22,659 nt of DNA from Albugo candida. Its lineage: Eukaryota. The stretch lies in NCBI GenBank assembly GCA_040437565.1, contig JBDOQK010000070.1, forward strand, positions 124,001-146,659, read 5' to 3'. Under the pieces are notes generated by a model. The model had not been told where the DNA came from, did no database searches, and saw nothing but the letters and a program-made list of their open reading frames with translations. Of this stretch, positions 6,380 through 22,659 are shown piece after piece. Made by a program: the position numbers and the translations under genes. How positions within the stretch are numbered: the stretch's first letter is position 1; each line of letters opens with the position of its first letter.

Positions 6380-6760
6380 AGCCAGGCCGATTCCCATCAG
6401 CATTCGTGGCTGCATCAACCAGCACGCATGGGCAGTCAGTACGTCAAAACGGCAACTATGTCCAGTGCGTTACAAGCGGTAGCGAATCGTATACAACTGA
6501 GTCTTCGTCGCACATGAAACGCCGTTTGCTATACATCATAATCGGCGCTCCGGCAGCTGCAAGTGCTCTCCTTGAACCAGTACCTGTGCATCCGTGGGAG
6601 ACCACCTGGATCGACCCGAAGGAATCAACCATCTGCATCATCGACGCAAAGAAATTCGTCGAAATTTGAGCTCTTTGCAGCAGCCTTGGATGCACCCATG
6701 CAAAGAAGATGCTTTCGTTGCATAAAGGTAGGATACGCCGCACGAAGATGTGGAAGTGCA
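6380..6760 (+). mobile_element. Degenerate retrotransposon gag C-terminal relic with decayed CCHC zinc knuckle
   Basis: RRCFRCIKVGYAARRC (Cys-to-Cys span 6710-6751) fits C-x2-C-x4-H-x4-C with His replaced by Tyr. In other frames it is preceded by EPVPV (like the PxPM motif of Ty3/gypsy Gag) and a TMSSALQAVANRI helix. Frameshifted, with no long ORF. Confidence 0.5.
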
Positions 6761-7391
6761 ACAACAGGACTCACAGGACTCAGTTTACAGAATAGAACAT
6801 TTCTGTGTTATGCACAATCCGCGTAGTGTGAAATAGTCTAACAAGAATGATCCAACACGAACAAACGCGAACGCGAACTTAACTGAATGATTGCAAATTG
6901 AGCGCAAAATAGGTGACGTTGAAAAATAGCTTGCCGTGCTATCGTATTGTCCCTTGCCTAGGCTCACGTTAGCAATATGCAATCATAAAAGTACTCAATC
7001 ATATTGAAACTGACGGGATTTTACCAAAAGCACTCAGAGGCTTTTAACGGTCCCCATTCATGATCGGTAATAGACAACCAGGTAAAAGGAGACGGGTGGT
7101 TCTATATATTTCGAGGAAGGGTTCGGTGGGTTCCTCGCAATATCAGCCGCGGCATGGGCCAACGGTAGAGGTGGATACTCGGACGCTATTTCCAGAAGCA
7201 ACGTGTCAAATCAGGCAGATTTTGTGGGCTATGGTCACTCAAATACGTTGATGTAACGACAGGTAGGATTGAAATGTGCATAGAAATCATTGTGTTCGAC
7301 ACAGAGCGGAATTCGGGGAAAATTGGTAGTTTGTATTTAGTATTTATTCTTGGTTTTTATACTTTAACAAATCTCTCATCTCACAGAAAAA

Positions 7392-7463
7392 GCCCTTATA
7401 GCTCAGGGGTAGAGCACTCGCTTCGTAAGCGAAAGGTCGGTGGTTCGATCCCGCCTGGGGGCT
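7392..7463 (+). tRNA. tRNA-Thr (anticodon CGT)
   Basis: Cloverleaf: acceptor GCCCTTA/TGGGGGC (two G-U pairs); D arm GCTC/GAGC; anticodon arm CTCGC-TTCGTAA-GCGAA with CGT at 7424-7426; T arm GGTGG-TTCGATC-CCGCC; discriminator T. 72 nt, no encoded CCA (eukaryotic type). Confidence 0.97.
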
Positions 7464-7686
7464 GAAAGTTTATTTGTTGACCTACATTGTATGGCATGTC
7501 GACAGTTCGTTGTCGTGCGTTGGCGCCTTTACCTTACCTCAAGTCTGTATGACCTTACTAATGTCGTCATGGCTAAAGTTGTTCAAAAAATAAACAAATT
7601 GTACTTCTCTTGTCCTTGTACTTACATTCCTCACCGCTTCGCTCTCGTAGTAGATGACCAGAGACATACTAAAGTACGAATGCTGT

Positions 7687-8334
7687 TCATTCCTGTCGAT
7701 CTAGCTGTACTTGGATCGCATCCAGTTGATCCAGAAAGTGGTAAATTGAGCTATGGCTCATTTCGAGTTCCAGCACATCATACTATAACAATCCAAGTGA
7801 GAAATTCTGTGAAAAGACAATTCAGCGCATACCTTCTGATTGTGGCTATTCTCGGACGTTATTTGCAAAAAAGCAACCGGTGTGATCTGGTTAGAGCACC
7901 ATTTATTGCCGACCTCGACGCGCGTTAACCACTCGCTGTTGCTGACAATATCCGTTCGTCTTAGAGTATCTTCGTTGCATAACAAATGCCTTCCATCTTT
8001 CCAAATTTGCTCCAGAATGTCGATTGTTGAAGAACTGAGCTGGAAAAGTTCTCGAATGGTTTCAAGAGAAGGCACATTGAATACGGTCAAAAACTTCAAA
8101 ACATCCAAACTCTCCGAGTATAACAGTTTGACGTGACCATCAGTCACATTGAGATCTCGATGTAGTTGTAGTGCTTCTACTTCTGTGATAACTTCGCTCT
8201 GCGTAATCACATGAGTTAGAAATGAATTCAAATCGCTCTCTTACACAAACATTCGCAGCCAATTTATTTAACGTAAACATTAGAATTCGATGCAGCTTAT
8301 CGTCCGCTATGCCATTTAATAAAGACATCGGCAT
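7687..8334 (-). CDS. COMMD10: COMM domain-containing protein, COMMD10-like (Commander/CCC complex); 3 exons, about 183 aa
   Basis: Exons 8334-8245, 8198-7833 and 7782-7687 are joined by phase-0 GT-AG introns of 46 nt (GTAAGA..CTAAC..CAG) and 50 nt (GTATGC..TAG). The spliced product runs MPMSLLNGIADDKLHRIL...SEWLTRVEVG...PVAFLQI...LELEMSHSSIYHFLDQLDAIQVQLD, matching the COMM-domain W..., P.A.LQ, E.SH..L..F..L..IQ.QLD pattern of COMMD10. Confidence 0.8.
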
Positions 8335-8373
8335 GATGTCACGCGAATGTGGGCGCAGCTAATATAAAAGTGT

Positions 8374-11220
8374 TCAGACCGTATTGATATTGCTGGTCGG
8401 GAACGCTGCAAAAATGCCTTCAAAAGAATCCCGACAGTTCTTAAATGTCTTGCTCCCCCACAAACGGGTGTAATACAATTCTTCACGCCAACAAGACTTT
8501 AAAAGCCCAAGAATTTGATGTATGTACTGCGAGACGAAAGCAACATTCCACTGGATTGGTGTGAATTTAGAGAGAAAGATATCTGCAAAAAATATGGTGA
8601 TCTGCTCGAAGAAACCATACATTTCAAATTCCATATTCACGTAGTCATCATCTGACACGTTCTTACCATCAGAATTTATCGAAATTCTGGCTGCAACGTC
8701 ATTCTCAAGTGCCGAAATGGAGTGAGGCAGTAGATCTTCAAGGACACGTAGGTAAAAGTCATCCACGAATAGTTTCCAGACTTTCGAAGTGCGGATAGAG
8801 TGAGCCACATCGGAAGAGCTTCGTTCAACCTCAGTTGTGGCATCATTTACAGATGTGGTATCCCCAGCAATGCCTGCTACTGCTTGCGTAATAATAAGCC
8901 GAAATTCGCACAAGAAGAACTTGTCATTGACAATTCCACGATCTTCAATTTGCAGCAAGTGCTTTAAAATTGTGGCGCCAACATCGTAATTAGATTTGTT
9001 TTGAATGAGATGCACAATGAATCGCTTCGAGATATCACGGATGGTCGGGCTAGATTGAAGCAATGGATACCATAGACTCGAATCCAAAAAATCATTGGAA
9101 GTTGATGTAATTGACTCAAATGTGCGATCGTTCCCTACACGGTCTTGGATTTTGATAACGCGAGCAATCATAGGCAAAAACACACGCATAACAATTAGGC
9201 TCGGGGCCCTAACTTGGTAATCATGTTTACGTTGCTTCCGACGTATTGTTGCGAAGTTGCCGAGCTGCAGTAGCTGAATGCAGCTCTTGCAAACAAGACT
9301 ATCTGTTGGGAGCTGTTTCTGTTGCCAACAACGATTGAGTTCACGGAAAATGGCTTCACATAAGGCATTCCTTACAAGTGGATCACACATAACCATTGCA
9401 ATGTCGAATAAGGATGGTTCACAAGTTTGCTCAGCAATCATCCCGATGTTGGAGCTGAGATCTTGATGAGGTACAGCACAACTTGATAAATATTCCAGTG
9501 TAGTTTCAATACCCATGACTTTTCTCCGTTTGGTAACTTCAAAACGCAATGGGACCCCTTTCATTATCTGAGTGCTGCGGTCTATCAATTCAGAGCCACG
9601 TTTACCGACACGCTTTCCCTCTTTATAGTAAATTGTGGTATCCGAATTGAAGAAGAGACAATTTTCAATCATCAGATCGAAATCTTTCCGAAGTGATTCT
9701 GCACTTTGATACTGACCATCCGCTGCTTTTCTTCGCATGGTGTATAGATCCATCGGATTTTGTACAGTTTTGTGATAATTGGGAACTGTGTCGGGAACCG
9801 GATCAGCAAATATGCGATGATGGTCAATTTTTGATATCTTTTCAACTAAAGAAGTCATTGAGCTGGGTGAAGGAGCGCTCCGTATGAGCTCGAAATAATC
9901 GTCTTCGTCGATATAGTCGGTGTTGTAAGTCCGAGTCTTTTGAGATGATGGTGATTCTTCCGACTTAAGCTCTTTGATAGCATTCTGGATATCAAGTAAT
10001 TGCTGGTCGTCGATTCTAGCTTCTTCAGTGTGGACCCGCAATAATCTGTCCAAATTCCAGGAGAATTTATGAATAGGTTCAGCCTTTGCCCCGAGTTTGT
10101 CTCGATTCAAGTTAGAAACATCGAATCGCATCGCGCCTAAAAACGGTAGATATTCCTTACTTGCTTTCGCGTGTAGATCTTTGCCAAGAGATTTTACGGT
10201 TTTAATACGTTCTTTCCAAATTTTCAAAGTATCAAGATACAGTTGCCTCGAATCAACAATCATATCCATGAGTTGTGATAATGCTTTACTCGATTTTCGG
10301 CGTTCTTCGAAAGAGAAGTGCGCTTTTCTGCTCACCAACCGACTTCCTCCGTTCGATTCAATTGCATGGATATGATCAACGCACAAGCTTTCCACGTATT
10401 GAGTCATGTCGAACAGTGTGTGTGTTTGATTTTGGTTTTGATTGCGTCGGGTCAGTAAAAGAGTGTTCCATTCACTGATATACTCATTTATGATTGCATT
10501 TACAAACTCCCTCCACTGATTCATGTCAACATGCATGATCTTACGACGAACAACTACTGGAAGTTCTGCCAGTAATTTCCGATTCTCTGTTAATTGATGC
10601 AGAAATATTGGTGGTGTGTACTCCTGACGTGACAATATTGCAATGACAAGAGACCGTAGCTCACGAAATTCAATGTAAGGAAATGTTTTGTCTAATAGTG
10701 ACTGCAGTTGTTGTTCGTCCAATTGATTTATGCGCAAGTGTAGCTCATTGAGTAATTTCTGCAACAAGTACGTGTAAGCTTCCGATTTGGAAACTTGTAA
10801 AAGGCTGAGGAGATGTATGGCTGGAAGAAGCGGTTGCCGATCAAATGCATCGACATTCGATTCGTTGTCTGTATTTCCTTCAGTATGTTCGTTTGCACGC
10901 TTGTAAGCTTCCTGCGTGTCATTTGTGCATACTTTCAGTTTTCGCGATGAATGAAGGGGAGGTATACCATAAGACTTTTGAAACTGCAATATTGCGTCGC
11001 CCGGATCTGGTGCGGTGCTCAGCAACTCTTTCAATTTGATGGCTCCTTGCGCACCTAGAAGAAGTTTGGAGATATCAATGCTGGCAGCAGCACCAGCCTT
11101 GGTTCTATACGAATTAGAGTGCCTTTTTCTATCCTTATTGGCATTGATAAATTGAGGTGAGGGAATGACGTCAATTGGTAGTTTGAGCTTTAGTTTGATG
11201 CCTTCGTTCTTAGCGGACAT
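8374..11220 (-). CDS. NELFB: Negative elongation factor B (COBRA1/NELF-B)-like protein with an internal bromodomain; 948 aa from the first ATG, no introns needed
   Basis: The ORF track starts at a TTG (11280); the first ATG is at 11220 (MSAKNEG). NELF-B-like blocks: DPGDAILQFQKSYGI, LLDKTFPYIEFRELRSLVIAIL, PVVVRRKIM, ERRKSSKALSQLMDMI..RQLY, EPIHKFSWNLD, and after the insert LFDIAMVMCDPL..LPTDS..IQLLQLG. Bromodomain at about 9858-9580: IFADPV..PNYHKTVQNPMDL..Y.S...LRKDFDLMIENCLFFN. Confidence 0.85.
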   Translation of the reverse strand: MSAKNEGIKLKLKLPIDVIPSPQFINANKDRKRHSNSYRTKAGAAASIDISKLLLGAQGAIKLKELLSTAPDPGDAILQFQKSYGIPPLHSSRKLKVCTNDTQEAYKRANEHTEGNTDNESNVDAFDRQPLLPAIHLLSLLQVSKSEAYTYLLQKLLNELHLRINQLDEQQLQSLLDKTFPYIEFRELRSLVIAILSRQEYTPPIFLHQLTENRKLLAELPVVVRRKIMHVDMNQWREFVNAIINEYISEWNTLLLTRRNQNQNQTHTLFDMTQYVESLCVDHIHAIESNGGSRLVSRKAHFSFEERRKSSKALSQLMDMIVDSRQLYLDTLKIWKERIKTVKSLGKDLHAKASKEYLPFLGAMRFDVSNLNRDKLGAKAEPIHKFSWNLDRLLRVHTEEARIDDQQLLDIQNAIKELKSEESPSSQKTRTYNTDYIDEDDYFELIRSAPSPSSMTSLVEKISKIDHHRIFADPVPDTVPNYHKTVQNPMDLYTMRRKAADGQYQSAESLRKDFDLMIENCLFFNSDTTIYYKEGKRVGKRGSELIDRSTQIMKGVPLRFEVTKRRKVMGIETTLEYLSSCAVPHQDLSSNIGMIAEQTCEPSLFDIAMVMCDPLVRNALCEAIFRELNRCWQQKQLPTDSLVCKSCIQLLQLGNFATIRRKQRKHDYQVRAPSLIVMRVFLPMIARVIKIQDRVGNDRTFESITSTSNDFLDSSLWYPLLQSSPTIRDISKRFIVHLIQNKSNYDVGATILKHLLQIEDRGIVNDKFFLCEFRLIITQAVAGIAGDTTSVNDATTEVERSSSDVAHSIRTSKVWKLFVDDFYLRVLEDLLPHSISALENDVAARISINSDGKNVSDDDYVNMEFEMYGFFEQITIFFADIFLSKFTPIQWNVAFVSQYIHQILGLLKSCWREELYYTRLWGSKTFKNCRDSFEGIFAAFPTSNINTV

Positions 11221-11617
11221 AGCGATATATCGCAATAATTTATATATAATATTATGGCGAATAGCCCGCAGCAATTTCAAATCCTATTTTCATTGATGCG
11301 GTTGCTGCTGCCGTGCTTACATCGCTGATGTATCGTTTGTTACGGTAGATTACCATCAGAAAAATACAAAATCTGGCACTGAATTATTCTGCACTCGATA
11401 GGCTGATCTATTACCTCACAGACAAGCAAAGATAATGTGCTTGTTCTTTTAACATAGTTTTACGCTTGTTGAACGATAGAATTAATCGAATGCTAAGTAT
11501 GGCCATCCGCTCTGCAACTAACACTATTTTTGAATGATATGTGCTCTAAAAGAGTAAGCCATTGTGATGTTTAACGTTGTCAGTCAATTGCCACAAAATC
11601 AATCAACGCAAATCATC

Positions 11618-11968: not shown

Positions 11969-13666
11969 ATGTGGCGACGCATATGTACCCGCGCATCTCT
12001 CAAGTATACTCGCTTTCCACGCCTGGAAGTGTTCCGACTGACTTCCTCATCGATAAAATTACAGCAGAAGGCCGCATTATGTAAAAGTACTATGGCTATA
12101 CTTTGTGTTGGGTGTGTGATAGGCAATTGCATATGCCGCACTGAGGAACAAGAAGAAAAGGTAGAACACTTTTTGTCGAATTGGTCGTGTACACACGAAT
12201 GCCAGCCTAGAGCGTTGTATGAGCCAGAAAATGTTGCAGAACTCAAATCAATCCTACAGATTCATCACGCACAAGGGAAGAAGATTCGATGTGTAGGAGC
12301 GGGGATATCTCCAAACGGAATCGGTTTCTCATCAAAAGTGAAGTATCCAAAAGAGGATGTCACTTTGTATCACGAAGACATGGTCTCTGTGGCTTCTCTT
12401 GACAAAGTGCTAAATGTGGACACTTCGAATAACTGCGTTACTGTAGAAACAGGGATCAAGGTGGATTGTCTGCTGGAACATTTACGGTCGCACGGTCTGA
12501 CTCTTAAGAATGTTGCATCTATTCGTGACCAGCAAATTGGTGGATTGCTGCAATCTGGGTGCCACGGTACAGGAGCCAAAATCCCACCTATGGATGCACA
12601 AATAGAGGAAATGATTTTGTTGACACCTGGTGAAGGAGAAATCACTTTAAGCGCTTCAAAACAACCGGAAGTATTTGCTCTTGCGAAATGTGGTCTGGGA
12701 GCTTTGGGAATTTTGACAAAAGTTACTCTTCAGTGTGTCCCGGTGCATTATCTTATTGAGAAGACGATAGTCATCAATGTGGAACAGATACGACAGCATC
12801 ATACTGAATGGCTTACCGAGTTTCAACATCTAAGGTACATGTGGATTCCATACACAGATTGCGCCGTTGTTGTTCAATGCAAGCAAATATCACTCGAAGA
12901 AATGCTAGATTTGGAAAAGTTCAACGCTAAATTTCCATCATCAAGCATAGATATGTCCGAGCGTTTAGCCCCAGCACAAAAACTATATCGAAATTGTTGC
13001 GGTGACAGAGCGGATCCAACGTATACAAATTGGGATTTTTTTACTATGCGTGACCAACTGATCGCACTCGATCCTTTGAATAAGGAACATATCAAGCTTG
13101 TTAACGAAATTGAGATGAAATTCTGGAAGCTTGGAGAGGGCTATCGAATTGGCCTGTCGGACAATATTATTTCCTTTGACTGTGGTGGTCAACAACTAGT
13201 GCACGAAATAGCATTTCCTGTATACGACATGAATGACATTGATTGTGTCGCAGAAATCTTGCAGGAAGTTGATCGAGCCAACATACCCTGTCCTGCACCT
13301 ATTGAACAACGATGGTCTGCGCCAAGTACCTCTTCAATGAGCCCAGCTTCATCGTCGGATCCAAACCAGGTTTTTTGCTGGATCGGCACGATCATGTACT
13401 TACCAACAAGTGAAATAAATTCACGCAAAGCGATCACAAAGCAATTTGGAGAATATAATGAAATTGTGCGGAACGTAAAGGATCGCTATAATGGATTTGA
13501 GCATTGGGCGAAATTAGAGTGGCCAGAAGATGAGGAGAAACGAAGAAAATTACAGGAAAAGTTTCGAGCGCGATATCCATTAGATAGTTTCAGAAAAGCT
13601 CGCGATACTTTGGATCCCAAACATATATTATCGAACGAATTTGTCGATCGTCTGCTGGAGCTTTGA
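11969..13666 (+). CDS. GLDH: L-galactono-1,4-lactone dehydrogenase, mitochondrial (VAO-family flavoprotein), 565 aa
   Basis: Arg/Ser-rich N-terminal presequence. Motifs NWSCTHE..LYEPE, GAGISPNG (no FAD-linking His), NVASIRDQQIGG..GCHGTG, HLRYMWIPYTD, FDCGGQQ, APIEQRW, EHWAK and LDPKHILSN are all typical of plant-type GLDH. Confidence 0.93.
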   Translation: MWRRICTRASLKYTRFPRLEVFRLTSSSIKLQQKAALCKSTMAILCVGCVIGNCICRTEEQEEKVEHFLSNWSCTHECQPRALYEPENVAELKSILQIHHAQGKKIRCVGAGISPNGIGFSSKVKYPKEDVTLYHEDMVSVASLDKVLNVDTSNNCVTVETGIKVDCLLEHLRSHGLTLKNVASIRDQQIGGLLQSGCHGTGAKIPPMDAQIEEMILLTPGEGEITLSASKQPEVFALAKCGLGALGILTKVTLQCVPVHYLIEKTIVINVEQIRQHHTEWLTEFQHLRYMWIPYTDCAVVVQCKQISLEEMLDLEKFNAKFPSSSIDMSERLAPAQKLYRNCCGDRADPTYTNWDFFTMRDQLIALDPLNKEHIKLVNEIEMKFWKLGEGYRIGLSDNIISFDCGGQQLVHEIAFPVYDMNDIDCVAEILQEVDRANIPCPAPIEQRWSAPSTSSMSPASSSDPNQVFCWIGTIMYLPTSEINSRKAITKQFGEYNEIVRNVKDRYNGFEHWAKLEWPEDEEKRRKLQEKFRARYPLDSFRKARDTLDPKHILSNEFVDRLLEL

Positions 13667-13702: not shown

Positions 13703-14555
13703 ATGGATCCAGCTAAGGAATTCACATTTCCAGAATACTATGATTTTCCACCTTTCTTTACGTTGCTCATTAGTTATGCACAGTGAATAGATGGTATATT
13801 GACGTGTAGTTGTTGCAGGCTACAACCTGTTCGAGCCACTCGTGAGAAACAGCTTGGACTATGGAAGCAGCTTATTCTTGATTACCACCAAGCGCGACAT
13901 CTGTCAATCTTCAGCCCACAAACCTCTCCCTTGTTTGCAAATTGCAAAATATCGCGTGAGTGATGCAGAAATGTAAGATTTCGGTTTAATATACACTGAA
14001 TAATATTTTTGCATGGAAACTGGAATGCGAACAGGAAAAATGAAAGCAGAAGGTCAAACTGCCATCATAGAGTACTTGATTCAATGTGGAAATGCCATTT
14101 GGGAGGATGCCAGTGAAACGCGTTGTCGTCTGATATGGAAGAAACCTGCAGAATGGGCTGCCGAGCTTTATGATTTTGTAAGGAATTCGTTTGCTTGATA
14201 TATGTGAGAGTACTGAGTTATATACCAAGGTCAAAGATCGAGGGATGCTAGGAAAGATTTATACTGTTTACGAGCTGTACGCAGGGGAAGAAACATTAGG
14301 GTCACGTACGAGACAAAGCTTCTCGACTTGACTATTGCTAATCTTACCTTATTGTTTTTTATCATTCCAAACATCCCTGTAGAATTCCACGGAATGGAGC
14401 CATGGTCATTGCGTGACGCTCTCAAGATTCTGGAAGAGCATGGAAAGGTTCGCTTTATTCATGATTGTAAGACGTCTCAACTGGTGGTTCAGGTGGTGCT
14501 GATATCCGGGACGACATGTGAGGAAGATGGTGTCAAGTTTATAGCCGTGGACTAA
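13703..14555 (+). CDS. VPS25: ESCRT-II subunit VPS25; 6 exons, 180 aa
   Basis: Exons 13703-13761, 13819-13955, 14035-14177, 14230-14305, 14383-14447 and 14493-14555 (543 nt) with GT-AG introns of consistent phase. Product: MDPAKEFTFPEYYDFPPFFTLQPVRATREKQLGLWKQLILDY...PLFANCKISRKM...WKKPAEWA...YTVYEL..GEET..QFHGM...LKILEEHGK..GVKF, the Vps25 signature. Confidence 0.93.
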
Positions 14556-16017: not shown

Positions 16018-18081
16018 ATGGTTCGGGTGGGACCAGAACTGGATGAGTACACGACGTCTGATGGAGCTATTAACTCACCCAATCCAGATGAAACTTCTCC
16101 CGAGAGTCTTGGAAGCAGTGGAGTTTACAAAAAGGAACAATCAGATGTGACGTTGTCTAAAGCTAGCTCAGAGCAATCAGGAATGAAGAAGACTCTTCGT
16201 CGACGTATAAGAAAAAATACGCCGATTCAAAAAGAATATCGGATGAAAGAGATACAACTTCAAAAGCTTGAAGGTGAAGTTTCAACTTGTCGTGATGAAA
16301 CAGGGTCGTCCGCCGAAATCTCCGATGCGAAAACCAATGAAAAGGCATACGATTCACTTGGACCAAGAAGTCATAGTCCCACGTTGATACCACTTCTATC
16401 AACGAACACAAAAGAGGAATCGAATGCAGCTGACGAACGCGAGCAAGCCAATAGTGTGACGAATCGAGGAATCATCAAGAAAAGTTACAATAATGCTCGC
16501 AATAACCATAGAAAGATTGCCCCTACAATGGACATGCTTAGCTCCGAATCAACAACATACTTGCCCTTATTATCAGATACTCTAAACGACAAGGTCATCT
16601 TCAGCGTATGTTCTACTGAAGTGATCGAAAACACGCCAAACGATGCGTCCTCTTTACCGACCACTACACAAGTACTTGAAGAAGAATTAGACAATGACGA
16701 AACTAGTAATAAAAAACGTGAGGCATTGTGCATTCAGCGGTGGTACCGAGGTTTTCTTGGAAGACGAATCACAGAGGTTGCTCGCTTAGTAATGGATAAG
16801 GAACTAGAAGATGAGGCCTGGGCGGAAATTCAGTCAGAAGCGGTCATCACAATACAAGCGCTACTTCGTGCATACAATATACGAAAAAGACTCAGTGGTA
16901 GATTGCTTTCAATTTACAAAAAGACGAAACGATTAAACTTTCAAATAAAATGGCCGGATCCATTGAATCTAGAACCAAAGGACGGATGGGAGAGTATTGA
17001 TTTCAGCGCAAGATCAGAGATCAGAAAGTTGCAAATTCGTGTCTTCTGTGGAACATGGAATTTACATGCGAAATTACCCACGGCTAGTTTACAGCAATGG
17101 ATTACACGAAATCAATATCACATAATCGCCATCGGGAGCGAAGAATGTGGAGCAACTATTGCAAAAAGTGTAGTTTTTCCTTCCAAGAAATTGTGGCAAG
17201 ATCTTGTGCAAGCAACGCTGGGCGCAAGTTATACTTTAGTAGCGTCACATGCTTTGGCTGCGATTCACAACATGGTATTCGTGCATCATACTTTGCTTCC
17301 GTTGATCCGTGATGTCCAGTCCGATGCCATTGCCACTGGTATAGGAAATCAATTGGGCAACAAAGGCGGTGTCGGCATAGCGTTTAGCGCCGGCGGAACA
17401 AGTTTTGCTTTCGTTAATGCTCATTTTGAAGCGCATCAACACAACGTAGAGAAGCGAAATGCCAGCTTTCATAAAATCAACACAGAGCTGAGGCTCCAAC
17501 CTGTTCGATACATTCCGGGTGTTAATCACGTTACATCTCTTTCCAAGATGAGAACCAGTCGGGCCAGCGTTCACATGTATCGTGGAAACGTCGGTAAGAG
17601 GCTCCTATCAGAGCTGTTTGATCGTGTGTTTTGGTATGGAGATCTCAACTATCGAATCAACGGCACCCGTAAAATGGTGGATACTTTGATAAAGGATCAG
17701 AATCATGCAGTTTTATATTTCAACGATCAATTGCAGCGAGAAATGCGGGAAAATAACGTATTTCCGAACTTTCATGAAGGTCCGCTGAACTTCCTACCGA
17801 CTTACAAGTTTGACAAAAACTCAGATCAGTACGATTCATCATCGAAACAACGAATCCCATCGTGGACTGATCGTGTCTTATACTTATCAAATGAGAATCA
17901 CCAGGATATTGAGGTCATACGATATACAAGTGAGATGCAGTTGCAGTCTTCAGATCACCGCCCCGTAACGGCCGTCTTTCTTGTCAACATCACTCTTGTT
18001 GTTGAAGCATCTGGAAAGTCACGTTCGGACCCTATACGGAGTCAGAATGCCACTAAAAGTAGGATTTGTATCATACAGTGA
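16018..18081 (+). CDS. Inositol polyphosphate 5-phosphatase, INPP5E-like, with two IQ motifs and a C-terminal CaaX; 687 aa
   Basis: IPPc motifs: GTWNL, IAIGSEE, GNKGGV, FVNAHFEAH, WYGDLNYRI, PTYKFD, PSWTDRVLY, SDHRPV. IQ motifs IQRWYRGFLGRR and IQALLRAYNIRK. Ends CIIQ-stop. Disordered S/E/K-rich N-terminus. Confidence 0.92.
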   Translation: MVRVGPELDEYTTSDGAINSPNPDETSPESLGSSGVYKKEQSDVTLSKASSEQSGMKKTLRRRIRKNTPIQKEYRMKEIQLQKLEGEVSTCRDETGSSAEISDAKTNEKAYDSLGPRSHSPTLIPLLSTNTKEESNAADEREQANSVTNRGIIKKSYNNARNNHRKIAPTMDMLSSESTTYLPLLSDTLNDKVIFSVCSTEVIENTPNDASSLPTTTQVLEEELDNDETSNKKREALCIQRWYRGFLGRRITEVARLVMDKELEDEAWAEIQSEAVITIQALLRAYNIRKRLSGRLLSIYKKTKRLNFQIKWPDPLNLEPKDGWESIDFSARSEIRKLQIRVFCGTWNLHAKLPTASLQQWITRNQYHIIAIGSEECGATIAKSVVFPSKKLWQDLVQATLGASYTLVASHALAAIHNMVFVHHTLLPLIRDVQSDAIATGIGNQLGNKGGVGIAFSAGGTSFAFVNAHFEAHQHNVEKRNASFHKINTELRLQPVRYIPGVNHVTSLSKMRTSRASVHMYRGNVGKRLLSELFDRVFWYGDLNYRINGTRKMVDTLIKDQNHAVLYFNDQLQREMRENNVFPNFHEGPLNFLPTYKFDKNSDQYDSSSKQRIPSWTDRVLYLSNENHQDIEVIRYTSEMQLQSSDHRPVTAVFLVNITLVVEASGKSRSDPIRSQNATKSRICIIQ

Positions 18082-18981: not shown

Positions 18982-21900
18982 ATGGTACTTTAAATGAATA
19001 GAATCTGAGCGATCTATCGATATTAATTGTGATGTGTACATGTCTATGTAGCCGCTCCGTCTGGAAATAAAAAAGAAGTTAACCTCGCGTTCCGAACGCG
19101 TTAAAAGCGTGGATTTTCATTCCACCGAACCTTGGGTTCTCTCAGCTTTGTACTCTGGGAGTGTGATGATTTGGAACTATGACACCCAAACGCTCGTAAA
19201 AAGCATTGAAGTTTCGTCGCTCCCTGTCCGAAATGCTAAATTTGTTGTTCGTAAACAATGGATTCTCACGAGTTCGGATGACATGATGATTCGAGTATTC
19301 AATTACAACACTATCGAAAAAATCACCAGTTTCGAAGCCCATACAGATTATATCCGTCACTTGGAAGTGCATCCAAGCTTACCTTGTGTGCTGAGTTGCG
19401 CGGACGATATGAGCATCAAGATGTGGGATTGGGAAAAGGGATGGGCATGCACTCAGGTATTTGACGGTCATGGTCACTACGTCATGATGGTCAAGTTTAA
19501 TCCGAAAGACACCAACACGTTTGCTAGTGCGTCATTAGACCGAACTGTGCGTGTTTGGGGTCTAGGTTCTTCACACGCACATTTCGCTCTGGACGGGCAT
19601 GAACGTGGTGTCAACTGTGTTGATTATTATCCTGGTGGCGATAAACCGTATTTATTGTCTGGATCGGATGATCGAACTGTGAAGATTTGGGATTATCAAA
19701 CGAAAGCTGTCTTGCACACATTTGATGGTCACGGCAATAATTTAACGGCAGTGTTATACCACCCTCGTCTACCGCTTATTATATCAGCATGTGAAGATGG
19801 TGCTGTTCGAATGTGGCACGCGACCACATACCGAGCAGAAACAACTCTGAATTACGGGATGGAACGAGCATGGACATTGGCCGCTCTCAAATCTGCTAAC
19901 AAGGTTGCAATAGGGTATGATGAAGGGACCATGGTAGTTCGGTTGGGTCATGATACACCGATAGCAAGTATGGATCAAAGTGGAAAGATAATCTGGGCTA
20001 ATAATCACGAGGTTCAGACAGCAAGTGTCAAAAGCATTGTCTCAGAAATGGGCTTGCAGGATGGTGAGAAACTTCCCTTACCTGCTAGGGAGCTGGGTAG
20101 CTGTGAAGTCTATCCACAAAAAATACGGCACAACAGTAATGGTCGCTTCGTAGCAGTATGTGGGGACAGTGAGTATATAATCTATACGTCTCAACAACTT
20201 CGCAACAAAGCGTATGGCTATGGTTTAGACTTTGCATGGTCACCACTGGGTACCGGTGATTACGTTGTACGGGAAAGCATCACCAAAATTACGCTTTTTC
20301 GTAACTTTAAGGAATACAAATCCGACAAACCTTGTGTTTGTTCTGCAGAGGGTCTGTTCGGTGGCGTAGGGGCAATCGGAATCAAGGGAAACGAATGTGT
20401 TGCCATGTACGATTGGGAAGAGATGCGATTGATTCGGAAAATTGATGTTATGGTGAAAAACGTTTACTGGTCAGAATCCGGAAACTTGGTTGTACTTGCA
20501 TGTGAGAAGCATTTTTTTGTTTTAGCATATAACAAAGAATTGGTCACGGAAGCCTTTGCAAATGGTACCAATCATCCAGAGCACGGAGTTGATGGATCTT
20601 TCGAACTGCTGCATGAGATATCGGAGAAAATCTGTACAGGTGTTTGGGTGGGCGATTGCTTTCTTTACACCAATAATACGAAGCGCCTTAATTACTATGT
20701 GGGTGGAGAAGTAATGTCATTAGCACATTTGGAGCAAAAATCGTACATTTTGGGCTATCTGCCGCGCGAAAATCTGATCTTTCTCATGGATAAAATGAAG
20801 AATGTCTACAGTTATACTGTTTCATTAGTGATGCTTGAATATCAAACAGCTGTTGTACGAAAAGATTTTGAAACCGCGAATTCTATTCTGCCAAATATTC
20901 CTCAAGACCAGATGGATTTGGTCGCCCGCTTTTTAGAATCACAAGGATACAAAGAGGAAGCTCTGGCACTCAGCACGGACCCAGATCAGAAATTTGACCT
21001 CGCTGTCCAGTTAGCAAAGCTAGACGTTGCGCGTGAAATCATGTTGAATGAGATTGAGACAGCCCAGCATCAAAAACCACAACTAGCAGGCTCACCGGCG
21101 GAACTTTCTATCGAAATGCAGCATAAGTGGAAGCAACTTGGAGATCTTGCATTAAATGACTTTCAATTCGATTTGGCAGAAGAGTGTGCACTGAGAGCAG
21201 ATGATTTTAGTATGTTGCTGATATTGTACACTAGTCGTGGAGATGGTGTCGGATTGGCAAAGCTTGCCAATCTAGCAACTGATAAGCGTCGATTCAATGT
21301 AGCATTTCTATGTCGACTATTATTGAATCAGACAAGTGAATGCGTGAAGGTGTTGAAAGAGACCAAGAGAGTTCCCGAAGCCGCGTTCTTTGCCAGAAGT
21401 TATTGTCCGTCTAAACTCAGTCTTGTGATGGATCAATGGCGTGAGGATCTGGCAAGTGTTAGTATTCGCGCTGCAAAGGCATTAGCCGATCCGATCCGGA
21501 ATTCTGAGCTTTTCGAAAACTTAGATTTTGCCCTGCAAGCAGAAAAAGAGATCTCGGCACGAGTGGTTGGCAATAAAAACGCCAAAAATTATCAGGAATG
21601 GCAAAGTCTACTTGATAACCAGACAGTATTGGAGATCGTACTCAGCGACAGTTTTAACAGCGGTTCAGATGAGAAAAAATCGTTGTCATCTTTGCAAGTG
21701 GAAATGGAGTCGAGATGTGCCAATGATGTCCCGGATAGCACTGAAGCTGCGCATGATGTTGTCGAAGATGTGCATGCTCACATAGAGCAAAATGCCGCAG
21801 AGTGTGCCGAGCTCGAGAATGGAGTCAAGATCGAACAAAATCGCGAGGGTGCCGAACTGGAAGCAAGAGTCAAGGCAGCAGAAGAACGAGAACGTGCGGA

Positions 21901-22659
21901 AATGGAAGCGAGAATAAAGGCAGATGAAGCTCGAGAGCGCGCCTTAATAGAGGCGAGAAGGAAGGCGGAACAAGATGCTCAAGAGCGTGCTGAACTGGAG
22001 GCAAGAGTCAAGGCAGAAGAAGAAGAACGAGATCGTGCCGAAAAGGAGTCCAGACTCAAGGCTGAAGAAATAGCTCGAGAGCGCGCCGTAATAGAGGCGA
22101 GAAGGAAGGCGGAACAAGAAGCTCAAGAGCGTGCCGAACTGGAGGCAAGAGTCAAGGCAGAAGAAGAAGAACGAGATCGTGCCGAAAAGGAGTCCAGACT
22201 CAAGGCTGAAGAAATAGCTCGAGAGCGCGCCGTAATAGAGGCGAGAAGGAAGGCGGAACAAGAAGCTCAAGAGCGTGCCGAACTGGAGGCAAGAGTCAAG
22301 GCAGAAGAAGAAGAACGAGATCGTGCCGAAAAGGAGTCCAGACTCAAGGCTGAAGAAATAGCTCGAGAGCGCGCCGTAATAGAGGCGAGAAGGAAGGCGG
22401 AACAAGAAGCTCAAGAGCGTGCCGAACTGGAGGCAAGAGTCAAGGCAGAAGAAGAAGAACGAGATCGTGCCGAAAAGGAGTCCAGACTCAAGGCTGAAGA
22501 AATAGCTCGAGAGCGCGCCGTAATAGAGGCGAGAAGGAAGGCGGAACAAGAAGCTCAAGAGCGTGCCGAACTGGAGGCAAGAGTCAAGGCAGAAGAAGAA
22601 GAACGAGATCGTGCCGAAAAGGAGTCCAGACTCAAGGCTGAAGAAATAGCTCGAGAGCG
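18982..22659 (+). CDS. COPB2: Coatomer subunit beta' (COPB2/SEC27), 3'-truncated by the window end
   Basis: ATG-only first coding exon (18982-18984), 67-nt intron GTACTT..TGTAG (18985-19051), then a frame from 19052 that has no stop in the parts I translated. It reads PLRLEIKKKLTSRSERVKSVDFHSTEPW..WD40 repeats (FEAHTDYIR, GHGHYVM, FASASLDRTV, GHERGVNCVDYY)..FLESQGYKEEAL..KWKQLGDLAL..PEAAFFARSY and runs to the window end, which would explain its absence from the ORF track. Confidence 0.96.
21929..22659 (+). repeat. Coding tandem repeat, 144-bp unit (48 aa = 3 x 16 aa); 5 full copies plus a partial one, reaching the window end
   Basis: Units start at 21929, 22073, 22217, 22361, 22505 and 22649 and encode ARERAVIEARRKAEQE-AQERAELEARVKAEEE-ERDRAEKESRLKAEEI. 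Unit 1 differs at 3 positions; units 2-5 appear identical. Confidence 0.97.

What the first reader, a model, noticed from the sequence alone, without database searches (positions are those of the whole stretch)
9420..9960. Bromodomain inserted into the middle of a NELF-B/COBRA1 homologue
Seen: NELF-B-like sequence runs to HKFSWNLD...IQNAIKEL, is interrupted by about 180 aa containing a complete bromodomain, then resumes with LFDIAMVMCDP. The bromodomain keeps the FADPV, PNY and PMDL motifs and the acetyl-lysine-binding Asn in FFN. Established (from recall): in metazoan NELF-B the HKFTWCLD and LGDLSMILCDP blocks are joined by only a short linker and there is no bromodomain, and NELF stabilises promoter-proximal Pol II pausing. 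Inference: this lineage may wire an acetyl-histone reader directly into the pausing factor, which would allow chromatin-directed recruitment (for example to the +1 nucleosome) in an organism where pausing is essentially uncharacterised. I do not know of a description of this architecture.
Basis: partly seen in the sequence, partly recalled or inferred. Interest (0 to 1): 0.85.

Follow-up and report, generated by a model that had tools for sequence, protein, structure and literature searches.

The report
NELF-B homologue with inserted bromodomain
This white-rust (Albugo) gene encodes a relative of the RNA polymerase II pausing factor NELF-B with an acetyl-lysine-reading bromodomain inserted in its middle; the same design occurs in all the water moulds found and in some other stramenopiles, but what it does has not been tested.

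Summary
Confirmed. Window 8374-11220 (minus strand) is one uninterrupted 948-codon gene, 90%-clustered with an Albugo candida protein. It matches Pfam COBRA1/NELF-B in two pieces (aa 187-265 = model 2-80; aa 601-745 = model 189-337). Each piece alone passes the curated cut-off. Between them lies a Pfam bromodomain (aa 458-535, E 1.6e-18). Human NELF-B joins the same two blocks by about 30 residues; Albugo has 212.

AlphaFold2 gives a confident bromodomain between two low-confidence linkers. The rest aligns to NELF-B of paused Pol II complexes (Z 18.9). The insert aligns to BRPF1 (Z 17.6, 1.6 A). The acetyl-lysine Asn and the ZA-loop Tyr are each kept in 42 of 43 oomycete copies. A spliced, transcript-like contig runs straight through the segment.

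All 45 homologues with both halves carry at least one bromodomain between them. Named cases span oomycetes from Albugo to Achlya. Cantina (Bigyra) has the N part plus one bromodomain, and Epipyxis (chrysophyte) a weaker N-part match plus three. Unnamed relatives carry 2-5 bromodomains, sometimes with PHD or zf-CW, at the same site.

An acetyl-chromatin-guided NELF core is inferred, not shown. NELF-C/D could not be checked. Databases auto-name both domains; no paper was found.

The parts
8374..11220 (-). Whole coding sequence (948 codons plus stop at 8374-8376) of the NELF-B-like protein with an inserted bromodomain. The start is taken as the first ATG, at 11220.
   Evidence: ORF list and translation. 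The transcript-like contig of run X1 covers 11227..8251 without a gap or joint. P0001 sits in one 90% cluster with Albugo candida CCI11056.1.
9970..10833 (-). N-terminal half of the NELF-B/COBRA1 fold (aa 130-417). It ends with the HKFSWNLD block (10048-10071) and the helix that holds IQNAIKEL.
   Evidence: Pfam COBRA1 model 2-80 at aa 187-265, 27 bits for the N piece alone. phmmer pairs aa 170-257 with human NELF-B 91-178. The model is helical here, with pLDDT 66-81 over aa 150-250.
9877..9969 (-). Linker 1 (aa 418-448), acidic and Ser/Pro-rich.
   Evidence: pLDDT below 50. Only 21.7% identity to 15 other oomycetes.
9559..9876 (-). Bromodomain fold (aa 449-554; Pfam core aa 458-535 = 9616-9849). 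It holds ZA-loop FADPV, Tyr482 in PNY, PMDL, and Asn525 in FFN (9646-9654).
   Evidence: Pfam 66.9 bits. 10-residue block means of pLDDT 73-91 over aa 451-550. VIA-align to BRPF1 5dy7: Z 17.6, rmsd 1.6 A, 111 residues. Foldseek TM 0.8-0.9 to BRD1/BRPF1/BRD7/BRD9. The BRD7 alignment places Asn525 and Tyr482 on the conserved Asn and Tyr. This is the best-conserved region: 50.3% identity to other oomycetes.
9421..9558 (-). Linker 2 (aa 555-600) with a conserved basic motif (KRRKV, aa 564-568 = 9517-9531).
   Evidence: pLDDT below 50 over aa 555-603. G555, P557, K564, R565 and K567 are invariant in 19 oomycete sequences.
8377..9420 (-). C-terminal half of the NELF-B/COBRA1 fold (aa 601-948). It starts with LFDIAMVMCDP (9379-9411) and LPTD (9301-9312).
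   Evidence: Pfam COBRA1 model 189-337 at aa 601-745, 31 bits for the C piece alone. phmmer pairs aa 601-686 with human NELF-B 295-378. VIA-align of the model's 146-944 to NELF-B chain residues 59-552: Z 18.9.

Best explanation
SHOWN:
- The gene encodes the oomycete counterpart of NELF-B (COBRA1), a helical-repeat protein.
- A BRPF/BRD7/BRD9-like bromodomain of about 106 residues sits between two flexible linkers (about 30 and 46 residues).
- The insert lies where human NELF-B has a short connection, at about residues 280-295. This is the junction of the N-terminal and middle modules that crosslinking defined.
- The insert is retained in a transcript-like contig. It is the best-conserved part of the protein among oomycetes and keeps the Asn and Tyr that hold acetyl-lysine in known bromodomains.
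- Homologues with one to five bromodomains at the same site occur in other stramenopiles.

INFERRED:
- The helical body still pairs with a NELF-C/D-like partner to form the ancient 'core NELF' and sits on early-elongating RNA polymerase II.
- The tethered bromodomain, perhaps helped by the adjacent conserved basic patch, binds acetylated histone tails of promoter-proximal nucleosomes.
- Occupancy or stability of the factor on Pol II is thereby coupled to promoter acetylation.
- In metazoa, DNA and RNA contacts of this lobe come from NELF-E, which is absent outside animals. The reader domain may supply the chromatin contact in stramenopiles.
For: Identity and architecture:
- Pfam gives a split COBRA1 match around a Bromodomain match.
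- Both halves hit only NELF-B chains below E 0.02 among PDB sequences.
- Foldseek ranks 1-5 are NELF-B chains (E 8e-7 to 1e-4), followed by BRD1/BRPF1/BRD7/BRD9.
- VIA-align: NELF-B Z 18.9 over 426 residues spanning chain 59-552; BRPF1 Z 17.6 at 1.6 A.
- In the AF2 model, block means of pLDDT are 73-91 over aa 451-550 and the linkers are below 50.

Not an artefact:
- It is a single ORF.
- The X1 contig carries GT..AG skips of 52 and 50 nt in the next gene, which the DNA-like run X11 lacks, and it is unbroken across 8251-11227.
- 10 of 18 differences between that contig and the window are synonymous, including the one in the Asn525 codon.

Conservation:
- 35 of 35 homologues carry both Pfam families.
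- 45 of 45 stored proteins with both halves have a bromodomain between them.
- Albugo versus 15 other oomycetes: bromodomain 50.3% identical, N half 41.7%, C half 33.9%.
- The Tyr and the Asn are each present in 42 of 43 oomycete-type copies.

Same site in distant forms:
- Tails that follow the last bromodomain of 9 non-oomycete proteins align to the start of the oomycete C half (hhalign probability 94.2%, E 1.1e-7).

Plausibility of the mechanism:
- Human NELF-B modules are N 85-291, middle 'hinge' 291-438 and C 438-519. NELF-C crosslinks to NELF-B K85-K146 (PMC4940160, passages). That region aligns with the module kept in all distant relatives.
- NELF-B and -C/D are reported as widely distributed and ancestral, and NELF-E as metazoan only (bioRxiv 10.1101/2023.02.19.529146, section 6).
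Against: - Similarity to metazoan NELF-B is weak. Whole-protein Pfam score is 49 bits, each half scores about 19-20 bits against human, and an oomycete profile did not bring NELF-B into the best 60 PDB rows, whose lowest score was 56 bits.
- The model as a whole is poor (mean pLDDT 61, pTM 0.43). The NELF-B superposition has rmsd of about 14 A, so only the local helical repeat agrees, not the overall arrangement.
- No partner (NELF-C/D, Spt5, Pol II), no acetyl-lysine binding and no pausing data were available. No genome is held for this window, so the presence of NELF-C/D is unknown.
- Relatives with 2-5 bromodomains plus PHD or zf-CW look like general chromatin readers. In those relatives only about 100 N-terminal residues and about 130 residues after the bromodomains are recognisably NELF-B-like.
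- Supplement tables of the NELF evolution preprint, which may list stramenopiles, were closed.
Confidence: 0.55

Rival explanations
1. Neo-functionalised reader scaffold. In stramenopiles the COBRA1-like helical repeat has left Pol II pausing. It serves only as a platform that carries reader domains (bromodomain, PHD, zf-CW) in some other chromatin complex, such as an acetyltransferase or remodeller assembly.
For: - Distant relatives carry 2-5 bromodomains with PHD (P0070) or zf-CW (P0157).
- The inserted bromodomains cluster with those of BRPF-like and multi-bromodomain proteins.
- Similarity to human NELF-B is low.
- NELF-A's Pol II-binding domain and NELF-E are reported only in or near animals (preprint section 6).
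Against: - The whole NELF-B fold is retained in oomycetes, corresponding to human 57-552.
- The module best kept in all relatives aligns with the human region that crosslinks to NELF-C.
- No second, bromodomain-free NELF-B-like protein appeared among the oomycete hits. This protein is therefore the only candidate for the 'core NELF' B subunit.
Confidence: 0.3
2. The protein is a NELF-B orthologue, but its bromodomain reads an acetylated non-histone partner or acts as an internal switch. The partner could be a transcription factor, an elongation factor, or a site in its own linkers. It would not be a histone-tail reader.
For: The domain hangs on long flexible linkers at a hinge-like junction. 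Linker 2 is lysine-rich and conserved. That bromodomains can bind acetylated non-histone proteins is general knowledge (recalled).
Against: The closest solved relatives (BRPF1, BRD1, BRD9, BRD7) include entries solved with histone peptides, as the PDB titles state: H4K5acK8ac, H3K14ac, H2AK5ac and H4K12ac. Nothing here points to a specific non-histone ligand.
Confidence: 0.1
3. Artefact. The bromodomain segment is a mis-assembled or mis-annotated fusion, or an intron that is spliced out of the mature mRNA.
For: None found. The look-up of sequencing runs lists no run on record as RNA, so the kind of run X1 is only a guess.
Against: - It is a single frame without stops.
- The same order of parts is seen in 45 of 45 homologues from many independent assemblies.
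- The bromodomain is the most conserved region.
- The X1 contig, which carries intron-like GT..AG skips elsewhere, crosses the segment unbroken, and the DNA-like run X11 is colinear too.
Confidence: 0.02

Closest known systems
Metazoan NELF-B / COBRA1 (human chains 8uhg_V, 7ycx_f, 6gml_V, 8jj6_A)
   Same: Same Pfam family (PF06209) over both halves. Shared blocks are HKF(S/T)W.LD and L.D(I/L)(A/S)M(V/I)(M/L)CDP ... LP.D. The helical-repeat fold aligns over human 57-552.
   Different: - About 185 extra residues (linker, bromodomain, linker) lie at the junction of the human N-terminal and middle modules.
- The N-terminal tail is about 50 residues longer.
- Sequence identity in the structural alignment is only 15-16%.
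- Partners and pausing activity are unknown.
Bromodomains of BRPF1/BRD1 and BRD7/BRD9 ('family IV'; the family label is recalled)
   Same: These are the best sequence and fold matches: phmmer 50-55 bits, 26-31% identity, rmsd 1.3-2 A. Shared features are the Asn in the (Y/F)N motif, the Tyr in P.Y, and TIYYK after the Asn.
   Different: Here the domain is an insert inside another fold. It is not part of a HAT-scaffold or SWI/SNF subunit. The residue before the Asn is Phe rather than Tyr.
BRD4 and P-TEFb control of pause release (recalled, not tested here)
   Same: It works alike in one respect: acetyl-lysine reading is coupled to the promoter-proximal step of Pol II transcription.
   Different: BRD4 is a separate protein that acts on the release side through a kinase. 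There is no homology beyond the bromodomain.
Multi-bromodomain NELF-B-like proteins of other stramenopiles (Cantina marsupialis P0170, Epipyxis sp. P0114; unnamed records P0070, P0084, P0094, P0134, P0136, P0146, P0157, P0173)
   Same: - They have the NELF-B N-terminal module. Against the oomycete N-half sub-profile, ten of the eleven (these plus P0172) score 37-61 bits and P0136 scores 16.
- Pfam COBRA1 is above its cut-off in Cantina, P0070, P0136 and P0173.
- Bromodomain(s) follow the N module, and the start of the C half follows them.
   Different: - They have 1-5 bromodomains, and some add PHD or zf-CW.
- The later C half is not recognisable.
- In three proteins the first bromodomain lacks the Asn.
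- In Epipyxis Pfam COBRA1 is not detected at E<=1, and the record ends inside the last bromodomain.

Membership tests
NELF-B / COBRA1 (Pfam PF06209) | Profile match above the curated gathering score | tested here: met
   48.9 bits against a cut-off of 22 for the whole protein. The N piece alone scores 27 bits and the C piece alone 31 bits.
NELF-B / COBRA1 (Pfam PF06209) | Both halves find NELF-B, and nothing else, among solved proteins | tested here: met
   In each search, 6 of the 8 rows listed at E<=10 are NELF-B chains (E 0.0026-0.017). The other 2 are unrelated, at E 0.34-1.3. The scores are weak, at 18-20 bits.
NELF-B / COBRA1 (Pfam PF06209) | Curved helical-repeat fold like NELF-B in paused Pol II complexes | tested here: met
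   Foldseek ranks 1-5 are NELF-B chains. VIA-align Z 17.4-18.9 over 418-430 residues spanning chain 57-552 (four entries; 8uha_V Z 16.9 over 476), but rmsd is about 14 A and the model's pTM is 0.43.
NELF-B / COBRA1 (Pfam PF06209) | Forms a complex with NELF-C/D (TH1) and associates with Pol II-DSIF, stabilising promoter-proximal pausing | not testable with these tools
The only indirect point is that the region aligned to the human NELF-C-crosslinking lysines K85-K146 is conserved.
Bromodomain (Pfam PF00439) | Profile match above the gathering score | tested here: met
   66.9 bits, E 1.6e-18, model 4-82 of 84. The insert alone scores 69.9 bits.
Bromodomain (Pfam PF00439) | Left-handed four-helix bundle with ZA and BC loops | tested here: met
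   AF2 helices 452-465, 492-500, 507-524 and 529-553, with block means of pLDDT 73-91 over aa 451-550. rmsd 1.3-2.0 A and TM 0.8-0.9 to BRPF1/BRD1/BRD9 crystal structures.
Bromodomain (Pfam PF00439) | Conserved BC-loop Asn and ZA-loop Tyr that hold acetyl-lysine (their roles are recalled) | tested here: met
   Asn525 and Tyr482 align with the (Y)N and (G)Y of BRD7. Each residue is present in 42 of 43 oomycete-type copies. The Asn is missing only in P0035, a gene model with a deletion there. The Tyr column is empty only in the N-terminally cut fragment P0039.
Bromodomain (Pfam PF00439) | Binds acetyl-lysine peptides | not testable with these tools
   This needs a binding assay.
BRPF/BRD1/BRD7/BRD9-type bromodomains | Groups with these bromodomains rather than with BET, GCN5 or TAF1 types | tested here: inconclusive
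   They are the top sequence and fold hits. In a weakly resolved tree, 35 of 38 NELF-B-associated bromodomains share one branch (SH-aLRT 98) with 10 of 55 others, one of which is a BRPF-like protein. No reference set of named families was in the tree.

The most novel reading that the evidence does not exclude
Stramenopiles as a whole possess a 'chromatin-reading core NELF'. In this reading, an ancient NELF-B took up a bromodomain at the hinge between its N-terminal and middle modules before oomycetes, ochrophytes and Bigyra diverged. The insert later expanded in some lineages into arrays of up to five bromodomains with PHD or zf-CW fingers. This reader module, rather than the animal-specific NELF-A/E subunits, would position and stabilise early-elongating Pol II against the acetylated +1 nucleosome. 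That would be an independent route to regulated promoter-proximal pausing outside animals.
Probability: 0.25. Interest if true: 0.85.

Novelty: new variant of a known kind. Interest (0 to 1): 0.6.

Why it matters
NELF is treated as the hallmark of animal-type promoter-proximal pausing. A recent survey reports its B and C/D subunits as ancient, but what they do outside animals is unknown. A NELF-B that carries its own acetyl-lysine reader would make a concrete, testable link between promoter acetylation and early elongation in a non-animal lineage. The insert is conserved more strongly than the rest of the protein, from Albugo to Achlya, and related forms occur in other stramenopile branches. 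A single Asn mutation offers a clean handle for the test. The protein would also be a natural example of a reader domain inserted at a hinge of a helical-repeat scaffold. If the protein turns out to be unrelated to pausing, the finding reduces to an unusual domain architecture that automatic annotation has already recorded.

Tried and rejected
- **Own genome:** The genome search on the window's genome found that no genome is held. NELF-C/D, -A and -E could therefore not be sought.
- **Word-limited homologue searches:** the search restricted to the C half found only the two Albugo proteins. The search with alignment A2 added no named non-oomycete relative; 29 of its 40 rows were oomycete proteins with both Pfam families and 11 were ordinary bromodomain proteins.
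- **Exhaustive profile search with A1:** it gave 13,809 hits at E<=0.001, and multi-bromodomain proteins swamped the 150 listed. Bromodomain-free NELF-B proteins of other eukaryotes scoring under about 131 bits could not appear. Whether any stramenopile has a plain NELF-B remains open.
- **A1 profile against PDB:** the best 60 rows are all bromodomain chains and NELF-B is not among them.
- **ESM Atlas:** no usable hit for P0001 or for the Cantina N part.
- **The look-up of sequencing runs:** no RNA holder is listed. Depth differences between genes and spacers were not used, because all runs laid are contigs.
- **C half in single distant proteins:** oomycete C-half profile hits were weak (P0084 12.8 bits, P0146 5.7 bits, others not significant). 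Only the pooled tail alignment gave a clear match.
- **Bromodomain tree:** it is too poorly resolved (96 columns, 49 of 90 forks open) to show a single origin of the inserted domains.
- **Considered and rejected:** a gene fusion by mis-assembly, a retained intron, and a degenerate bromodomain (see the rival explanations).
- **Supplements:** those of the NELF evolution preprint are closed. Its Supplemental Table 1 may list stramenopile NELF subunits.
Full report
**What is there**

The window has 36-46% G+C per kilobase. Its other large frames are ordinary eukaryotic housekeeping genes: an ALO/FAD-binding sugar-lactone oxidase, a 5-phosphatase with an IQ motif, and coatomer alpha.

On the minus strand a single frame runs 11280..8374. 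From its first ATG it gives a 948-residue protein, P0001 (window:8374-11220:-). This exact protein is on record at NCBI. It lies in one 90% cluster with 'unnamed protein product [Albugo candida]' CCI11056.1, which UniRef names 'Bromo domain-containing protein'. The Albugo laibachii orthologue is 73% identical. The window is therefore Albugo candida or something very close to it.

Pfam gives these matches:
- Bromodomain at aa 458-535: 66.9 bits, E 1.6e-18.
- COBRA1 in two stretches. Scanned separately, the piece before the insert scores 27 bits (aa 187-265 = model 2-80). The piece after it scores 31 bits (aa 601-745 = model 189-337 of 348). Both pass the cut-off of 22.

The recalled contrast with animals is borne out by computation. 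Against all PDB sequences, each half puts only NELF-B chains below E 0.02. The blocks that are about 30 residues apart in human NELF-B (HKFTWCLD near 260, LGDLSMILCDP near 298) are 212 residues apart in Albugo.

**Structure**

An AlphaFold2 model was built on 19 oomycete sequences. It is poor overall (mean pLDDT 61, pTM 0.43) but clear in its parts:
- aa 449-554 form a bromodomain with 10-residue block means of pLDDT 73-91 over aa 451-550.
- It is flanked by aa 418-448 and 555-603 at pLDDT below 50.
- The remainder is all-helical.

Fold comparison agrees with the sequence results:
- Foldseek puts five NELF-B chains from paused or arrested Pol II complexes first (E 8e-7 to 1e-4). BRD1, BRPF1, BRD7 and BRD9 bromodomains follow at TM 0.8-0.9.
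- VIA-align gives NELF-B Z 18.9 (426 residues, model 146-944 on chain 59-552, rmsd about 14 A). It gives BRPF1 Z 17.6 (111 residues, 1.6 A).

The HMMER alignment with BRD7 puts Asn525 (FFN) on the conserved Asn and Tyr482 (PNY) on the conserved ZA-loop Tyr. Their roles in holding acetyl-lysine are recalled knowledge.

**Where the insert sits**

Crosslinking of human NELF defined three NELF-B modules: N-terminal 85-291, middle 291-438 (proposed as a hinge) and C-terminal 438-519. NELF-C crosslinks mainly to K85-K146 (PMC4940160, passages). The Albugo insert maps between human ~280 and 295, which is the N/middle junction.

**Is it expressed as one piece?**

No run is on record as RNA. However, a 3,664-nt contig of run X1 lies on the minus strand and covers 11227..8251 without a gap or joint. 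It then skips 8250-8199 (52 nt) and 7832-7783 (50 nt), both GT..AG on the minus strand, inside the next gene. The DNA-like run X11 shows none of these skips and is colinear.

The simplest reading is a spliced transcript assembly that keeps the bromodomain segment. The run's kind remains a guess. Of the 18 differences between that contig and the window inside the coding sequence, 10 are synonymous, including the one in the Asn525 codon.

**Distribution among oomycetes**

- All 35 hits of the first homologue search carry both Pfam families. All named hits are oomycetes: Albugo, Globisporangium, Pythium, Lagenidium, Phytophthora, Peronospora, Hyaloperonospora, Peronosclerospora, Plasmopara and Bremia.
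- The exhaustive profile search added Achlya hypogyna.
- I cut alignment A1 into sub-profiles for the N half, the bromodomain and the C half. With these, 65 of 188 stored proteins carry an N or C half.
- All 45 proteins that have both halves have at least one bromodomain between them. Several of these are near-duplicates of one another.
- The proteins with one half only and no bromodomain are short fragments.
- No bromodomain-free paralogue appeared among the oomycete hits.
- Against 15 non-Albugo oomycetes, the bromodomain is the best-conserved region (50.3% identity). The N half is 41.7%, the C half 33.9% and linker 1 21.7%. P0025 and P0035 were left out for gene-model gaps.
- The Tyr and the Asn are each present in 42 of 43 oomycete-type copies.

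**Beyond oomycetes**

- Cantina marsupialis (Bigyra) has COBRA1 at 38.9 bits followed by one bromodomain.
- Epipyxis sp. (Chrysophyceae) matches the N-half sub-profile at 41 bits and has three bromodomains. Pfam COBRA1 is not detected there at E<=1, and the record ends in its last bromodomain.
- Nine unnamed records share the N module followed by 2-5 bromodomains: P0070, P0084, P0094, P0134, P0136, P0146, P0157, P0172 and P0173. P0070 also has PHD fingers and P0157 a zf-CW finger. Pfam COBRA1 is above its cut-off in P0070, P0136 and P0173.
- The regions that follow the last bromodomain in nine of these proteins, aligned together, match the first ~130 positions of the oomycete C half. The hhalign probability is 94.2% and E is 1.1e-7. 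The shared pattern is L..DP ... LP.DD ... QL.QLP (also visible).
- Single-protein matches to the C half were weak.

The insertion site is therefore shared, and the feature is probably older than the oomycetes. A bromodomain tree is too poorly resolved to prove one origin. Still, 35 of 38 NELF-B-associated bromodomains fall on one supported branch together with 10 of 55 other bromodomains.

**Mechanism (inferred)**

- A preprint reports NELF-B and -C/D as widespread and ancestral, and NELF-E as animal-specific. Species with only the B and C/D core show intermediate pausing indices (10.1101/2023.02.19.529146, section 6 and passages). Its main text mentions neither bromodomains nor stramenopiles.
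- In mammalian complexes the NELF-B/E lobe is the downstream edge of the elongation complex and lies close to the +1 nucleosome (PMC11881899, passages).
- A bromodomain on linkers of about 30 and 46 residues at the NELF-B hinge could therefore reach nucleosomal tails. A conserved basic motif (KRRKV, aa 564-568) follows it.

My best reading is a core-NELF subunit whose residence on early-elongating Pol II is tied to promoter acetylation. This rests on homology and geometry only.

**Novelty**

Automatic annotation already names both domains in several oomycetes. I found no paper that discusses the architecture:
- NELF-B/bromodomain/oomycete: 63 papers hold at least 2 of the 3 terms. None of the 20 listed is relevant.
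- COBRA1 with oomycete terms: COBRA1 occurs 0 times in each of the 15 listed papers.
- COBRA1 + oomycete: 0 papers.
- NELF + Phytophthora: 3 papers, none relevant.
- NELF + stramenopile: 2 papers, of which the 1 listed is irrelevant.
- Two oomycete chromatin papers mention bromodomains only in other proteins (passages).

I rate it a new variant of a known kind. It is of real but moderate interest until a partner or a ligand is shown.

Noticed in passing
window 7462-8334, minus strand: A second gene starts about 40 nt after the NELF-B stop (ATG near 8334). It has two very short introns, 8199-8250 (52 nt) and 7783-7832 (50 nt), both GT..AG on the minus strand. They appear as skips in one X1 contig that also spans the NELF-B gene. 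The 157-aa frame at 7761-8231 has no Pfam family.
   Followed up: partly
window 11969-13666 (+) and 13762-13818: A divergently placed gene encodes an ALO + FAD_binding_4 sugar-1,4-lactone oxidase/dehydrogenase-like protein. An X1 contig shows a 57-nt GT..AG skip at 13762-13818, downstream of that frame's stop. This is either a 3'-UTR intron or the start of another gene.
   Followed up: partly
window 16018-18081 (+) and 19109-22657 (+): The first is a 5-phosphatase-type Exo_endo_phos2 protein with an IQ motif. The second is coatomer alpha (COPA), which runs off the window's end.
   Followed up: no
window about 6480-7070: Many short contigs with loose ends and odd joints pile up here in three runs, and summed depth in X11 rises (up to 77 against about 14 elsewhere). 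This looks like a dispersed repeat.
   Followed up: no
window 9517-9531 (aa 564-568) within linker 2: A basic motif lies just after the bromodomain (KRRKV; oomycete consensus RIRAKKRRK). G555, P557, K564, R565 and K567 are invariant in 19 oomycete sequences. It could be a nuclear localisation signal or a DNA/nucleosome contact.
   Followed up: no
proteins P0084, P0094, P0134 (unnamed records): In these four-bromodomain NELF-B-like proteins the first bromodomain has Val or Cys where the acetyl-lysine Asn should be. Later bromodomains mostly keep the Asn; P0094's third has His. The first is possibly a degenerate reader.
   Followed up: no
protein P0018 (Phytophthora citrophthora): The orthologue is named 'Bromodomain and PHD finger-containing protein 3' at NCBI, although it has the COBRA1 + bromodomain layout. 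This is a misleading automatic name.
   Followed up: no
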